NCBI GenBank assembly: GCA_018399515.1
Contig: JAGYOB010000071.1
Location: 1 to 31,979 of the forward strand
Source: Candidatus Nanopelagicales bacterium
Lineage (GTDB): Bacteria > Actinomycetota > Actinomycetes > S36-B12
DNA: 31,979 bases
Reading direction: 5' to 3'
Shown: positions 15,680 to 19,964 of the stretch, piece by piece
How positions within the stretch are numbered: position 1 is the stretch's first letter
Layout of the letters: the number at the start of each line of letters is the position of its first letter
The notes under the pieces: generated by a model
Told to the model about the DNA's origin: nothing
Databases searched by the model: none
The model's input: only the letters and a program-made list of their open reading frames with translations
Position numbers and translations under genes: made by a program

Positions 15680-16719
15680 CACGAGCCGTGGTTCGGCCTG
15701 CTGAGGCGCTTGCGCCGCAGGTCCACGACGAGGTGGACATGTCGACTCATCTCGCGGGGCTCGACCTACCCAGTCCAGTCCTCACCGCGTCCGGTTGTGC
15801 GGCAGCCGGGCGCGAACTCGATCAGTTCTTCGACCTCACCCGTATCGGAGCAGTGGTGACGAAGAGCATCATGCCCGAGCCACGGTCAGGACGGGCTACG
15901 CCGCGGATGGCCGAGACGCCCAGCGGGATGCTCAACTCGATCGGGTTGCAAGGACCGGGAATCGCGTCGTTCATCGAGCGTGATCTGGCATGGCTGCATC
16001 AACGGGGTGCGCGGGCTGTGGTGTCCATCGCCGGCGACACGGTCGACGATTACGCGCGGCTCGCAAAGATCCTGCGGATGCAGGAGGGGATCAGCGCCAT
16101 CGAGGTCAATATCTCCTGCCCGAATGTCGAGGATCGCGGCAAGGTGTTCGCCTGCGATGCAGGAAGTTCATCGGCGGTGATCCAGGCTGTGCGCCGCAAT
16201 ACTGATTCCCGAGTACCTATCCTGGCCAAACTCTCGCCGGATGTCACCGACATCACCACGATCGCGTTGGCGTGTGTGCGAGCAGGCGCTGACGGCCTGT
16301 CGGTCATCAACACTCTGCTCGGCATGGTCATCGACACCGATCGTCTGCGTCCAGCGCTCGCGGGGGTCACCGGAGGATTGTCCGGCCCGGCCATCCGCCC
16401 GGTGGCCGTGCGCTGCGTCTGGCAGATTCGCCAGGTGATGCCCGAGGTGCCCATTCTGGGCATGGGGGGCATCCGTACCGGATTGGACGCGCTGCAGTTC
16501 GTGTTGGCCGGAGCGAACGCGGTGTCGGTGGGAACCATGGTGTTCAACGATCCGAGTGCGCCGCTGCGGGTGCATCACGAACTGCAGACGGCTCTCGCCG
16601 AGCGCGGTTTCACTCGATTGATCGATGCGATCTCCTACGCTCACGGATACCTCGACCGGGAGCACCCGGCATCCGACCCGGTCGAGGATGACGTCGAAGC
16701 GGCCACGGAGGAGCCGTGA
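15676..16719 (+). CDS. pyrD: Dihydroorotate dehydrogenase, class 1B catalytic subunit, about 347 aa
   Basis: VTKS, NSIGLQGPG, EVNISCPN (family-1 catalytic Cys), KLSP, INT, GGLSG. ATGA overlap with pyrK; ATG 15739 is an alternative start. Confidence 0.93.
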   Translation: MTRAVVRPAEALAPQVHDEVDMSTHLAGLDLPSPVLTASGCAAAGRELDQFFDLTRIGAVVTKSIMPEPRSGRATPRMAETPSGMLNSIGLQGPGIASFIERDLAWLHQRGARAVVSIAGDTVDDYARLAKILRMQEGISAIEVNISCPNVEDRGKVFACDAGSSSAVIQAVRRNTDSRVPILAKLSPDVTDITTIALACVRAGADGLSVINTLLGMVIDTDRLRPALAGVTGGLSGPAIRPVAVRCVWQIRQVMPEVPILGMGGIRTGLDALQFVLAGANAVSVGTMVFNDPSAPLRVHHELQTALAERGFTRLIDAISYAHGYLDREHPASDPVEDDVEAATEEP

Positions 16720-17435
16720 TCGCCCCGATCGCGGTGGCGCTGGATGCACCTGATGCGCAGACCTTGACGCGGTGGGCGGCGGCTGTCACCGGGGTGGTGA
16801 GCACGGTGAAGATCGGGCTCGAGGTGTACCTGCGAGATGGGGCACCGGCTGTCCATGCTGTCCGCGAGACGGTGGGTCCTGACTGCGGGGTGTTCTTGGA
16901 CCTGAAACTGCATGACATTCCCGCGACGGTCGGGGGAGCAGCCCGGTCGGTGCGAGACCTTCGCCCCGACTTCCTCACCGTTCATGCCGCGGGCGGGCCG
17001 CAGATGATCGCGGCGGCCGCGGAGGCACTTCCCGATACTCAGATCACGGCTGTGACCGTCCTGACATCGCTGAGCGAAGTCGATCTACACCGCTTAGGCA
17101 TACTCGTTGGGGATGACTCCGTCGCCGATGTCGTCCAACGATGGGCTCTCCTCGCCGTCGAGGCGGGAGCGCGGGCTGTGGTGTGTTCCCCCCAGGAGGT
17201 AGCGGTACTCCGGGGCGCCGTTCCCGCGGACGTCACGCTCATCACGCCGGGTGTGCGACCGGCAGGTGCCGATGCCGGTGATCAACAGCGGATCGCGACA
17301 CCGTCGAGTGCCCTCGCGTCGGGTGCTGACCTCCTGGTGATCGGGCGACCGATCACTGCAGCGACCGATCCGCGCGCTGCTGCGCAGTCCATAGCGCGGG
17401 AGTGTTTCGATGTTCTCGACCATCGTCAGGAGTGA
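16716..17435 (+). CDS. pyrF: Orotidine-5'-phosphate decarboxylase, 239 aa
   Basis: IAVALD, KIG, FLDLKLHDIPATV, TVHAAGG, AVTVLTS, TPGVR, VIGRPI. Confidence 0.96.
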   Translation: MIAPIAVALDAPDAQTLTRWAAAVTGVVSTVKIGLEVYLRDGAPAVHAVRETVGPDCGVFLDLKLHDIPATVGGAARSVRDLRPDFLTVHAAGGPQMIAAAAEALPDTQITAVTVLTSLSEVDLHRLGILVGDDSVADVVQRWALLAVEAGARAVVCSPQEVAVLRGAVPADVTLITPGVRPAGADAGDQQRIATPSSALASGADLLVIGRPITAATDPRAAAQSIARECFDVLDHRQE

Positions 17436-17441
17436 CCGACG

Positions 17442-18314
17442 ATGACGACACCATCCCTGGACGATGAGGCCCGGTTGCGGGGGCGCGAGCAGGCGTTGGC
17501 GGCTCGACAACGACGAGCGCAGGTCAAGGCGGAGCTGAAGGCTGGTGCACTCAATCTCCCGGACATCCTCGCGTTGCGCGATGACCCGGTGTTGTCCCGT
17601 CTGCGCATCGGCGAGATCGTGCGGTCGCTACCTGGATTCGGCCCGGCGCGCACGCATCGACTTCTGACCGGCTGCGATATCGATCCTTCTCGACGGCTCG
17701 GTCAACTCGGCGAGCACCAACGGCAGCGATTGATCTCGGCGGTTCTGTCGATGCGGGGGCTGTCCGCGCCGGCGCGCTTGATTGTTCTTTCGGGGCCCTC
17801 GGGAGTCGGGAAGTCCTCGGTCGTGGGCTATCTGCGCGAACATCATCCGGGAGTGTGGTTCTCCGTTTCGGTCACCACGCGCTCGCCGCGACCGGGAGAG
17901 ATCGACGGGGTGGACTATCACTTCATCGACCAGGTGGAGTTCGACCGGCTTCGAGATTCGGGTGAGTTGCTGGAGTGGGCGGTGTTCGCCGGTAACTCCT
18001 ATGGCACTCCAGCCGAGCCGGTCCGGCGCCGATTGGCCCATGGTGAGCCGGTGATCTGCGAGATCGAATTGCAGGGGGCGCGGCAGGTGCGCGCTCGCGA
18101 TCGGCAGGCGGTTCTGGTGTTCCTCGCCCCACCCTCCTGGGATGTCCTCGTCCAGCGCTTGACCGGACGGGGAACAGAAGAGCCTGAGGTCGTCGCTTCG
18201 CGGTTGGTCACCGCCCAGCGGGAACTCGCGGCCGAGAGCGAATTCGATGTGGTGGTCGTCAACGACAGCGTGGCCCAAGCGGCCGAGGAGATCGTCGGGC
18301 TCATCACAGGCTAG
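17442..18314 (+). CDS. gmk: Fusion of an actinobacterial integration host factor (mIHF, S13-like H2TH) domain, aa 1-103, with guanylate kinase, aa 104-290
   Basis: The N-terminal part ([16 protein letters not shown]...[10 protein letters not shown]...[11 protein letters not shown]) aligns by eye with mIHF/sIHF. The C-terminal part has [10 protein letters not shown] (P-loop), [38 protein letters not shown] and FLAPPS. No stop codon between the domains. SD AGGAG at 17428-17432. Confidence 0.92.
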
Positions 18315-18317
18315 GAT
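18312..18317 (+). promoter_or_regulatory. Candidate -10 element (TAGGAT) for rpoZ-coaBC, overlapping the gmk stop codon
   Basis: TANNNT hexamer at the start of a 79-nt intergenic region; SD-like AGGAAGG lies upstream of the rpoZ GTG. Confidence 0.35.
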
Positions 18318-18393
18318 GCTGTCTTGCTGCTGGGGTCCGACTCGTCCAGCCCGCGCCCCCGTGGGGGGATACACCGATAGGAAGGCCACGCCC

Positions 18394-18750
18394 GTGCCGT
18401 CACCGCGCCCCGAGGGAATCACCTATCCGGCGATCGATGATCTGCTGGAACGGACCGACTCCAAGTACTCGCTGGTGATCTATTCCGCCAAGCGGGCGCG
18501 ACAGATCAACGCGTACTTCTCCCAGTTGGGGGAAGGACTCTTGGAATACGTGGGGCCCCTCGTGGAGACTCACGTTCAGGAGAAGCCCCTGTCGATCGCG
18601 CTTCGTGAGATCGATGCGGGCCTGCTCACGGCAGAGCCAATCGATCCCAATGCAGTACCCGTCGTCGAGACCGCGGTGACCGACACCTTCACGGTCGTCG
18701 ACTCCGACACTGCGGGTGCAACGGGTGACGAACCCTTGGACGCGTCCTGA
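18394..18750 (+). CDS. rpoZ: RNA polymerase omega subunit, about 118 aa
   Basis: [43 protein letters not shown] 18394 follows an SD-like sequence. Confidence 0.95.
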
Positions 18751-19964
18751 GCGCACGCATCCTGCTGGGGGTTTCGGGTGGCATCGCCGCCTACAAGTCC
18801 TGCACGCTCGTGCGTCTGCTTCGCGAAACCGGTCACGATGTTCGCGTCGTGCCTACTGAGTCAGCCCTGAAATTCGTCGGGGCCGCGACTTGGGAGGCGC
18901 TGTCAGGTCATCCGGTCACCCATGAGGTGTGGGATGACGTTCCCTCCGTTGCTCACGTCGAACGTGGTCGGTGGGCGGATCTGGTCATCGTTGCACCGGC
19001 CACCGCCGATCTGCTTGCCCGCGCCGTTGCCGGGATGGCCGATGACCTGCTCACGACATCGCTCCTGACCGCTACCTGTCCGGTGCTCTTCGCACCTGCG
19101 ATGCACACCGAGATGTGGCTGCATCCAGCAACCCAGGCCAATGTTTCGACCCTGCGATCTCGGGGCATGCACGTACTGCCCCCGGCGGTGGGACGACTGA
19201 CCGGTGCTGATTCGGGTCCCGGGCGCCTTCCCGAGCCGGCGCAGATCATGGCTGCTGCCCTGCCCCTGCTCGCACCCCAGGACCTTGCCGGACGACGGGT
19301 GCTGGTGTCCGCGGGAGGAACTCGTGAGCCCCTCGACCCGGTTCGCTACCTGGGCAATCGCAGCAGCGGACGTCAGGGTGTCGCGGTCGCGCAGCGAGCC
19401 CGTGATCGCGGTGCGCAGGTGACCTTGGTCGCAGCACATCTGGATATTGATCCTCCCGGGGGCGTCGACGTGATCGAGGTGGATACCGCAGCATCGCTGC
19501 GCCAGGCCATGGTGGAGCGCCTCACCGAGGCAGACGTCATCGTGATGGCAGCCGCCGTCGCGGACTTCCGGCCCGCTGAGGTAGCTGAACACAAGATCAA
19601 GAAGACCGACTCCGGCCGGGCAGAGGCGATCAGTCTCGCGCTGGAACGCACGGCGGATGTTCTCGTCGAACTCGTCGAGGCGCGCTCTGCCGGCCAGGTC
19701 ATTATCGGATTCGCCGCCGAAACCGGATCCGCCGCAGCGAGTGCCCTCGAGATCGGTCGCGAGAAACTCACTCGCAAGGGCTGCGATCTGCTCGTCGTCA
19801 ACGATGTCAGCGGGGATCGCGTCTTCGGCCGCGATACGAACGAGGCGGTGATCCTCGACCGATCCGGACCTGATGTCGACGTCCCTCGGGCCAGCAAAGC
19901 CGCGGTGGCCGACACGCTGTGGGACACCGTGGCGCAACGCTATTTGACCCACCCGATAAAGTGA
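18747..19964 (+). CDS. coaBC: Bifunctional phosphopantothenoylcysteine decarboxylase / phosphopantothenate-cysteine ligase, about 405 aa, probable CTG start
   Basis: [13 protein letters not shown] lies upstream of the ORF-track start; [74 protein letters not shown]. Function is secure; the start codon is inferred. Confidence 0.95.
19957..19962 (+). promoter_or_regulatory. Candidate -10 element (TAAAGT) in the last codons of coaBC, for the riboswitch-metK transcript
   Basis: TANNNT hexamer that would put +1 at about 19969, immediately before riboswitch P1 (19971). Confidence 0.45.

What the first reader, a model, noticed from the sequence alone, without database searches (positions are those of the whole stretch)
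17442..18314. Nucleoid protein mIHF fused in frame to guanylate kinase
Seen: a 103-aa mIHF-like domain runs without a stop into a 187-aa Gmk. The junction Met (ATG 17751) gives exactly standalone Gmk length, as expected if the stop of an adjacent mihF was lost. Known: pyrF-mihF-gmk-rpoZ-coaBC-metK is conserved in actinobacteria, with mihF normally a separate, abundant, DNA-bending H2TH protein. I recall similar long Gmk proteins in Microbacteriaceae, so the fusion may not be unique, but I know of no functional study. Inference: an oligomeric Gmk could be tethered to nucleic acid, or GMP/(p)ppGpp sensing by Gmk could be coupled to nucleoid organisation or transcription. This is the best candidate for undescribed biology in this window.
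Basis: partly seen in the sequence, partly recalled or inferred. Interest (0 to 1): 0.7.

Follow-up and report, generated by a model that had tools for sequence, protein, structure and literature searches.

The report
Conserved mIHF–guanylate kinase gene fusion
One gene in this uncultured actinobacterium really does join the DNA-packaging protein mIHF to the essential enzyme guanylate kinase, but the same fusion is common in public genomes (labelled only "guanylate kinase"), so it is genuine and unstudied rather than rare.

Summary
Window 17442..18314 (+) is one open 290-codon gene. Residues 4-100 pass the NCBIfam actinobacterial-IHF model and residues 112-288 pass the guanylate-kinase equivalog model. 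It is the only mIHF match and the only Gmk match in this 88%-complete MAG.

It is not a sequencing error. At least five independent assemblies carry the same fused gene in the same carB-pyrK-pyrD-pyrF-[fusion]-rpoZ-coaBC-metK context.

Both domains are under purifying selection (dN/dS about 0.1-0.2 for mIHF, 0.05-0.08 for Gmk). The linker evolves freely.

The junction Met (ATG 17751) is absent from all 86 other fused relatives, so it is not a conserved second start.

The fusion is fixed in the window's genus and a sister genus. It recurs in part of another family of the same order and in two further families, one Microbacteriaceae-like (e.g. Canibacter oris WP_183304597.1).

Within the window's own family, other genera keep separate genes, and at least two have no detectable mihF. 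This argues that the fusion is tolerated rather than required.

No paper describing the fusion was found. This scan already reported it on at least eight other genomes.

Best reading: a bifunctional protein doing the two ancestral jobs. Functional coupling remains untested.

The parts
16716..17435 (+). pyrF (OMP decarboxylase). Its TGA stop at 17433-17435 lies 6 nt before the fusion's start codon.
   Evidence: ORF list. Orthologous genes in relatives carry PF00215.
17428..17432 (+). Shine-Dalgarno-like AGGAG, 9 nt upstream of ATG 17442, inside the end of pyrF.
   Evidence: Read directly from the sequence. Its function is inferred.
17442..18314 (+). The fused gene mihF~gmk: 290 codons plus a TAG stop.
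   Evidence: The N-terminus M-T/A-T-P-x-L-D is conserved in orthologues.
17451..17741 (+). mIHF/sIHF-type H2TH nucleoid-protein domain (residues 4-100). It contains the H2TH motif P64-G65-x-G67-x-x-R70 (17631-17651) and the DNA-contacting 'lid' I80...R84-R85...L89-G90 (17679-17711).
   Evidence: NF041260 scores 85.4 bits. The domain aligns to 6TOB and 4ITQ. The AF2 model of residues 1-106 matches sIHF-DNA structure 6BEK at TM 0.90, rmsd 0.9 A. The motif columns are invariant or nearly so in 76 fused proteins.
17757..17777 (+). Interdomain linker (about residues 106-112). ATG 17751 (Met104) sits just before it, at the end of helix 5.
   Evidence: pLDDT is below 50 at residues 106-108. Linker length (5-40 aa) and sequence vary among relatives, and the Met is not conserved. 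dN/dS here is roughly neutral.
17775..18305 (+). Guanylate kinase domain (residues 112-288), with P-loop GPSGVGKS at 17793-17816.
   Evidence: TIGR03263 scores 219.6 bits. The best PDB sequence match is M. tuberculosis Gmk 1ZNW/1S4Q, E 2e-57. Foldseek gives TM 0.89, rmsd 2.0 A. The catalytic columns are invariant in 76 fused proteins.
18394..18750 (+). rpoZ (RNA polymerase omega), probably starting at GTG 18394 (118 aa).
   Evidence: ORF list. The rpoZ genes called in relatives are 116-118 aa and carry PF01192. The translation starts [10 protein letters not shown].

Best explanation
The gene encodes one bifunctional polypeptide translated from ATG 17442. Its N-terminal module is an mIHF/sIHF-type H2TH domain that binds DNA without sequence specificity. 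A short, unconstrained linker joins it to a C-terminal, catalytically complete guanylate kinase (GMP + ATP -> GDP + ADP). It serves as the cell's only mIHF and only Gmk. The fusion arose in the common ancestor of the window's genus and a sister genus. There, the 3' end of mihF and the overlapping, translationally coupled start of gmk (ATGA-type overlap, different frames) were merged into one frame. It persists because both parts are needed, were already co-transcribed, and mIHF tolerates a C-terminal passenger. No new activity is required. The expected consequences are equimolar production and a nucleoid-associated Gmk. What is shown: the architecture, its conservation, selection on both domains, recurrence, and the junction anatomy. 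What is inferred: DNA binding, kinase activity, the single product, and the absence of emergent function.
For: Both domains pass curated family cut-offs. Their predicted folds match sIHF-DNA (TM 0.90) and M. tuberculosis Gmk (TM 0.89). This is the only mIHF hit and the only Gmk hit in the genome, and the three congeneric genomes (96-97% complete) also have one mIHF hit each, the fused one. Independent assemblies show the same fused gene in the same synteny. dN/dS is 0.09-0.20 for the mIHF domain and 0.05-0.08 for Gmk, with a near-neutral linker. The H2TH and lid motifs and the Gmk catalytic columns are invariant. The N-domains carry a net charge of +2 to +10, the same range as unfused mIHFs of the family. 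Unfused relatives show an ATGA-type overlap in different frames. In a PyrF+Gmk+RpoZ tree, g1+g8 sit on one side of a 93%-supported split, consistent with a single origin. The fusion recurs in other families. An sIHF-eGFP C-terminal fusion complements an sIHF deletion in Streptomyces (PMC3627587). mihF-gmk-rpoZ behaves as a polar operon in M. tuberculosis (PMC6155035). In the same family some genera keep separate genes and two have no detectable mihF, so the fused state is one of several tolerated states.
Against: No expression, proteomic, DNA-binding or kinase data exist for any fused protein. The full-length AF2 model has pTM 0.81, higher than expected for two freely jointed domains. This may mean a defined interdomain contact, but neither PAE nor coordinates were available. 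mIHF is normally far more abundant than a nucleotide kinase (established knowledge), so 1:1 stoichiometry is odd and may carry a cost or a function. Long retention in whole families (f36 all sampled, f50 22 of 23) could also reflect an advantage.
Confidence: 0.6

Rival explanations
1. Functional coupling (a Rosetta-stone reading). Tethering Gmk to the nucleoid would place GDP/GTP supply near DNA, or it would let GMP/GDP/(p)ppGpp occupancy of Gmk modulate DNA binding by the mIHF module, or the reverse. By extension, separate mIHF and Gmk would cooperate in other actinobacteria.
For: mihF and gmk, followed by rpoZ, are adjacent across the class. Fusions are retained in at least three to four lineages. 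Full-length AF2 pTM is 0.81. The genome encodes a Rel-type (p)ppGpp synthetase. Gmk is a (p)ppGpp target in several non-proteobacterial phyla, with sensitivity set by protein-protein contacts around the lid (PMC6783271).
Against: Recurrence and orientation are the expected by-product of adjacent, overlapping, co-transcribed genes. The linker is unconstrained in length and sequence. Sister genera do well with separate genes or with no detectable mIHF at all. No interface could be inspected.
Confidence: 0.2
2. The N-domain is no longer a nucleoid protein. It has been repurposed or is degenerating into an N-terminal extension of Gmk, for example for oligomerisation, stability or RNA binding, in a family where the need for mIHF is relaxed.
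For: The N-domain accumulates amino-acid change about three times faster than Gmk. The genus has the lowest NF041260 scores in its family, about 80-88 bits against 92-113. The third basic lid residue (RRxR in mIHF/sIHF) is Gly in this clade (RRLGQLG). Genera g2 and g7 of the same family have no mihF between pyrF and gmk, and no hit elsewhere.
Against: dN/dS of 0.1-0.2 is clear purifying selection. The H2TH motif, R84-R85, L89-G90 and Q93 are invariant or nearly so. Net positive charge is retained. The predicted fold superposes on DNA-bound sIHF at 0.9 A.
Confidence: 0.12
3. Two products: besides the 290-aa protein, internal initiation at ATG 17751 gives a free 187-aa Gmk.
For: An in-frame ATG lies exactly at the domain boundary.
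Against: Met104 is found in none of 86 fused relatives, including those 76-83% identical. There is no AGGAG-like Shine-Dalgarno sequence in the 15 nt before it, whereas ATG 17442 has one. No promoter-like site lies in the region.
Confidence: 0.06
4. Assembly or sequencing artefact hiding a stop or frameshift between two separate genes.
For: The genome is a fragmented MAG (394 contigs). One relative, G084, shows a frameshift in the linker, so such errors or reversals do occur.
Against: The same open fusion is present in at least five independent assemblies and in all four genomes of the genus.
Confidence: 0.02

Closest known systems
mIHF (Rv1388, PDB 6TOB) and sIHF (SCO1480, PDB 4ITQ/6BEK), the actinobacterial H2TH nucleoid-associated proteins
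   Same: Residues 4-100 pass NF041260. The secondary structure is the same: one long N-terminal helix followed by four short helices. The H2TH motif and the basic lid are conserved. The predicted fold superposes on DNA-bound sIHF at TM 0.90, rmsd 0.9 A. The genomic position after pyrF is the same.
   Different: It is not a free ~105-aa protein but the N-terminal third of a 290-aa enzyme. The third lid arginine is replaced by Gly. It evolves faster than typical mIHF. DNA binding has not been tested.
Guanylate kinase Gmk (TIGR03263; M. tuberculosis Rv1389, PDB 1ZNW/1S4Q)
   Same: Residues 112-288 score 219.6 bits against a 160.45 cut-off. They are 55-56% identical to M. tuberculosis Gmk, with TM 0.89. 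The P-loop and the GMP/ATP-binding columns are invariant. The position before rpoZ is the same.
   Different: It carries a 105-residue DNA-binding-type N-terminal domain and has no start codon of its own that is conserved.
The same mIHF~Gmk fusion in other actinobacteria (e.g. Canibacter oris WP_183304597.1, Leucobacter sp. RRD36348.1; families f36 and f50 of the class survey)
   Same: The domain order, total length (288-333 aa), short variable linker and annotation as plain 'guanylate kinase' are all the same.
   Different: They are only 43-52% identical to the window's protein. They lie in other families, and unfused lineages lie between them on the tree, so at least some are independent fusion events.

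Membership tests
Actinobacterial IHF (mIHF/sIHF; NCBIfam NF041260, Pfam H2TH_5 PF22525) | Sequence match above the curated cut-off | tested here: met
   NF041260 scores 85.4 bits against a cut-off of 60. PF22525 scores 39.3 against 27.
Actinobacterial IHF (mIHF/sIHF; NCBIfam NF041260, Pfam H2TH_5 PF22525) | Fold: a long N-terminal helix plus a four-helix core with a helix-two-turns-helix | tested here: met
   The AF2 model (pLDDT 93.6) has helices 8-34, 39-43, 56-61, 68-77 and 91-105. The top PDB matches are 6BEK, 4ITQ and 6TOB. The description of the sIHF fold comes from PMC3627587.
Actinobacterial IHF (mIHF/sIHF; NCBIfam NF041260, Pfam H2TH_5 PF22525) | Conserved H2TH turn (PGxG) and basic lid (RRxRGLG) that contact DNA | tested here: inconclusive
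   PGFG, R84-R85 and L89-G90 are present and conserved. The third basic lid residue is Gly here (RRLGQLG).
Actinobacterial IHF (mIHF/sIHF; NCBIfam NF041260, Pfam H2TH_5 PF22525) | Small free-standing protein of about 105 aa | tested here: not met
   It is fused in frame to Gmk, with no stop. NCBI types the model as 'equivalog_domain', so occurrence as a domain is allowed.
Actinobacterial IHF (mIHF/sIHF; NCBIfam NF041260, Pfam H2TH_5 PF22525) | Non-specific dsDNA binding and nucleoid association | not testable with these tools
   This needs EMSA, ChIP or localisation experiments.
Guanylate kinase (TIGR03263 equivalog; Pfam PF00625) | Sequence match above the equivalog cut-off | tested here: met
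   TIGR03263 scores 219.6 bits against 160.45. PF00625 scores 143.7 against 25.2.
Guanylate kinase (TIGR03263 equivalog; Pfam PF00625) | P-loop GxxGxGKS/T and conserved GMP-binding and lid residues | tested here: met
   G118, P119, G123, K124, T145, T146, R147, R150, E153, Y187, R214, R217, R239 and R243 are invariant in 76 fused proteins, and Y159 is nearly invariant (at least 90%).
Guanylate kinase (TIGR03263 equivalog; Pfam PF00625) | Gmk fold | tested here: met
   Foldseek matches M. tuberculosis Gmk 1S4Q/1Z8F at TM 0.89, rmsd 2.0-2.1 A.
Guanylate kinase (TIGR03263 equivalog; Pfam PF00625) | GMP kinase activity; sole Gmk of the cell | tested here: inconclusive
   It is the only TIGR03263 match in the 88%-complete genome. 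Activity is not testable here.

The most novel reading that the evidence does not exclude
The fusion is a Rosetta stone. On this reading, mIHF and Gmk work together on the nucleoid. Gmk's nucleotide or (p)ppGpp state would tune chromatin or transcription, or mIHF would position GDP/GTP synthesis next to RNA polymerase (rpoZ is the next gene). The same partnership would then hold for the separate proteins in Mycobacterium and Streptomyces.
Probability: 0.12. Interest if true: 0.75.

Novelty: new variant of a known kind. Interest (0 to 1): 0.35.

Why it matters
mIHF is an essential, abundant chromatin protein in M. tuberculosis, and Gmk is an essential enzyme and a (p)ppGpp target. A natural covalent link between them, kept for long periods in several actinobacterial lineages, is a cheap lead for testing whether guanine-nucleotide metabolism and nucleoid organisation are connected. 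If they are not, the locus is still useful as an example of gene evolution. Within a single family it shows the separate, fused and mIHF-less states side by side. It also shows that mIHF is probably dispensable in some streamlined actinobacteria. Finally, these proteins are under-annotated as plain 'guanylate kinase'.

Tried and rejected
Independent assemblies were used instead.

Complex prediction with the Gmk domain (109-290) against the mIHF domain (1-105), each with an alignment: no verdict (score 0.20, mark 0.32). This says nothing either way about binding.

Literature: searches for mIHF + guanylate kinase, sIHF + gmk, and integration host factor + guanylate kinase + actinobacteria found no paper on the fusion.

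A lead from earlier scan notes: Gmk might be made by read-through of an in-frame mihF stop in unfused genomes. I checked 25 in-frame-stop junctions, and nearly all have ATG, GTG or TTG after the stop. I rejected this as a general mechanism.

G081 (g26) looked fused. The junction shows separate genes with a GTGATG-type overlap, so I counted it as unfused.

The tblastn list of Geodermatophilaceae looked like many fusions. ORF analysis shows they are separate genes, many of them in frame with one stop between. Only Blastococcus brunescens has a single open frame.

The promoter/terminator scan of 16600-18900 found nothing.

Full report
OBSERVATION

Window 17442..18314 (+) is a single open frame of 290 codons ending in TAG. 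Pfam places H2TH_5 at residues 32-99 and Guanylate_kin at 111-284. NCBIfam places the actinobacterial IHF model NF041260 at residues 4-100 (85.4 bits, cut-off 60) and the guanylate-kinase equivalog TIGR03263 at 112-288 (219.6 bits, cut-off 160.45).

An AGGAG lies 9 nt before ATG 17442, inside the end of pyrF, whose TGA is at 17433-17435. The surrounding genes are pyrK-like, pyrD, pyrF, the fusion, rpoZ (probably from GTG 18394), coaBC, metK and priA.

NOT AN ARTEFACT

However, a search of 5.8 billion proteins returns dozens of full-length relatives, 49-83% identical and 288-333 aa long, all with both Pfam domains. The closest ones come from independent assemblies:
- an NCBI MAG (GCA_913063435.1),
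- two ENA assemblies,
- a JGI metagenome,
- two Logan runs.

All have the same order carB-pyrK-pyrD-pyrF-[fusion]-rpoZ-coaBC-metK. All four genomes of the window's genus have the fused gene.

THE ONLY COPY

The window's assembly is a MAG of 1.96 Mb in 394 contigs, 88% complete. It has one NF041260 match and one TIGR03263 match, and both are this gene. The three congeneric genomes (96-97% complete) also have a single mIHF match each. The genome also encodes two HU homologues and a Rel-type (p)ppGpp synthetase. No Lsr2 was found.

ANATOMY

The N-domain aligns with M. tuberculosis mIHF (6TOB, E 3e-15) and S. coelicolor sIHF (4ITQ, E 6e-11). The H2TH turn (LPGFGPAR) and the lid ([11 protein letters not shown]) are conserved, but the third basic lid residue of mIHF/sIHF (RRxRGLG) is Gly in this clade.

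An AF2 model of residues 1-106 (pLDDT 93.6) has one long helix and four short helices. It superposes on DNA-bound sIHF (6BEK) at TM 0.90, rmsd 0.9 A. This matches the published description of sIHF, which binds DNA as a monomer through the lid and the H2TH turn (PMC3627587).

The C-domain is 55-56% identical to M. tuberculosis Gmk (1ZNW/1S4Q; E 2e-57; TM 0.89). Its P-loop and nucleotide-binding columns are invariant in 76 fused proteins.

The full-length model has pLDDT 90.8 and pTM 0.81, with only residues 106-108 below 50. The high pTM hints at a defined domain arrangement. Neither PAE nor coordinates were available, and no solved structure spans both domains.

THE JUNCTION

In 86 other fused relatives the linker varies from about 5 to 40 residues and has no conserved sequence. 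None has Met at the position of Met104, including those that are 76-83% identical. There is no Shine-Dalgarno-like sequence before ATG 17751. The 'exact standalone Gmk length' is therefore a coincidence, and a conserved second product is unlikely.

In unfused genera of the same family, mihF ends in a different frame from gmk, and its stop overlaps the gmk start (ATGA type). So the fusion needed a frame merge near the 3' end of mihF, not just loss of a stop. Elsewhere in the class many genomes have the two genes in the same frame with one stop between them, almost always followed by a normal start codon.

SELECTION

I compared five close orthologues pairwise (Nei-Gojobori method; dS 0.26 to above 1.5, so the values are approximate). 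dN/dS is 0.09-0.20 for the mIHF domain and 0.05-0.08 for Gmk. The 10-codon linker is near neutral.

N-domains of fused proteins keep a net charge of +2 to +10, the same range as free mIHFs of the family. Both halves are therefore maintained, although the mIHF half changes about three times faster than the Gmk half.

DISTRIBUTION

Order survey: 201 genomes searched, counting the window's own (G000), of which 200 were sampled (with junctions checked).
- Fused in all 4 genomes of the window's genus g1.
- Fused in 4 of 5 genomes of genus g8. The fifth, G084, has a frameshift in the linker.
- Fused in 3 of 20 genomes of genus g26, in another family (f10).

Class survey: 401 genomes searched, counting G000; the 400 sampled were all at least 90% complete.
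- Fused in 22 of 23 genomes of family f50.
- Fused in all sampled genomes (about 40) of family f36, which has closed genomes of 1.2-2.2 Mb.
- One of the unfused genomes in that tally, G223, is unpublished.

The f50 proteins are 56-67% identical to the fused 'guanylate kinase' of Canibacter oris (WP_183304597.1), Leucobacter sp. (RRD36348.1) and related unnamed fused relatives (P0101, P0115). I infer that f50 is Microbacteriaceae.

A PyrF+Gmk+RpoZ maximum-likelihood tree puts g1+g8 on one side of a 93%-supported split from the other genera of the family, consistent with one fusion event there. The f10, f36 and f50 fusions are separated from it by unfused lineages. The f36/f50 relationship is unresolved. 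I therefore count at least three independent origins.

THREE STATES IN ONE FAMILY

Genera g3, g5, g6, g9, g10 and g11 keep separate genes. Genera g1 and g8 are fused. Genera g2 and g7 have gmk directly after pyrF, with no mihF in between. Genera g2, g4 and g7 (14 genomes, 92-100% complete) have no NF041260 hit anywhere.

On the tree g2 and g7 are not sisters, and both sit among the separate-gene genera, so these look like two losses from the unfused state. This argues that in this group mIHF is under relaxed requirement. The fusion then appears as one of several tolerated outcomes rather than a necessity.

MECHANISM

The best-supported reading is a bifunctional protein doing the two ancestral jobs. 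It was created by a frame merge at a translationally coupled junction. It is kept because both parts are needed and already co-expressed. mIHF also tolerates C-terminal cargo: an sIHF-eGFP fusion complements an sIHF deletion (PMC3627587), and mihF-gmk-rpoZ is a polar operon in M. tuberculosis (PMC6155035).

Gmk is a (p)ppGpp target outside the Proteobacteria, with sensitivity set by contacts around the lid (PMC6783271), and this genome has Rel. But nothing found here requires coupling, and the free-evolving linker and the neighbouring unfused and mIHF-less genera argue against a strong dependency.

COMPARISON AND NOVELTY

Each half is a clear member of its family. The exception is that the mIHF half is not free-standing and lacks one lid arginine. 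The architecture is abundant in public data, always named 'guanylate kinase'. NCBI's model type 'equivalog_domain' implicitly allows it to occur as a domain.

I found no paper on the fusion. This scan has already reported it on at least eight other genomes, with the same conclusion.
- the selection estimates,
- the junction reconstruction,
- the non-conservation of Met104,
- the three-state picture within one family, including apparent loss of mIHF.

VERDICT

The feature is real, conserved and under-annotated. It is a known kind of event, a fusion of adjacent operon genes, giving an undescribed variant of two well-known proteins. It is of moderate interest.

Noticed in passing
L153-L160 (genomes G006, G049, G116, G128, G064 of genus g2; G079, G096 of genus g7; same family as the window): pyrF is followed directly by gmk (185-197 aa), with no mihF between them. 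Genera g2, g4 and g7 (14 genomes, 92-100% complete) have no NF041260 match anywhere at E<=0.001. On the tree g2 and g7 are not sisters, so these look like two independent losses of a protein thought to be universal in actinobacteria and essential in M. tuberculosis.
   Followed up: partly
L102 (G084, genus g8), junction region: This is a fused-type mihF~gmk gene with a frameshift inside the linker. The mIHF frame stops at ...RQGRR*, and the Gmk frame has no nearby ATG. It is either a MAG error or a secondary split.
   Followed up: no
L112, L135 (G017, G012, family f4) and L124 (G439): mihF and gmk are in the same frame, separated by a single TGA. In f4 the only canonical start after the stop is a TTG/GTG at the first beta-strand, 4-5 codons before the P-loop. 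In G439 there is no ATG/GTG/TTG between the TGA and the P-loop. The start of gmk there is unclear; re-initiation, a CTG start or read-through are possible.
   Followed up: partly
L049 (Blastococcus brunescens BMG 8361, CP141261.1): This is the only Geodermatophilaceae record in the set with mihF and gmk in one open frame. The Gmk match stops at about residue 264 of the query, so the 3' end may be disturbed.
   Followed up: no
window 18247-18750: The longest rpoZ ORF starts at ATG 18247, overlapping the end of the fusion. Orthologues are 116-118 aa, which fits a start at GTG 18394 preceded by GGAAGG.
   Followed up: partly
window 17679-17711 and alignment A2: The third basic residue of the DNA-contacting lid (RRxRGLG in mIHF/sIHF and in most fused relatives) is Gly in the window's clade (RRLGQLG) and in the Microbacteriaceae-type fusions (KRLGGLG).
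   Followed up: partly
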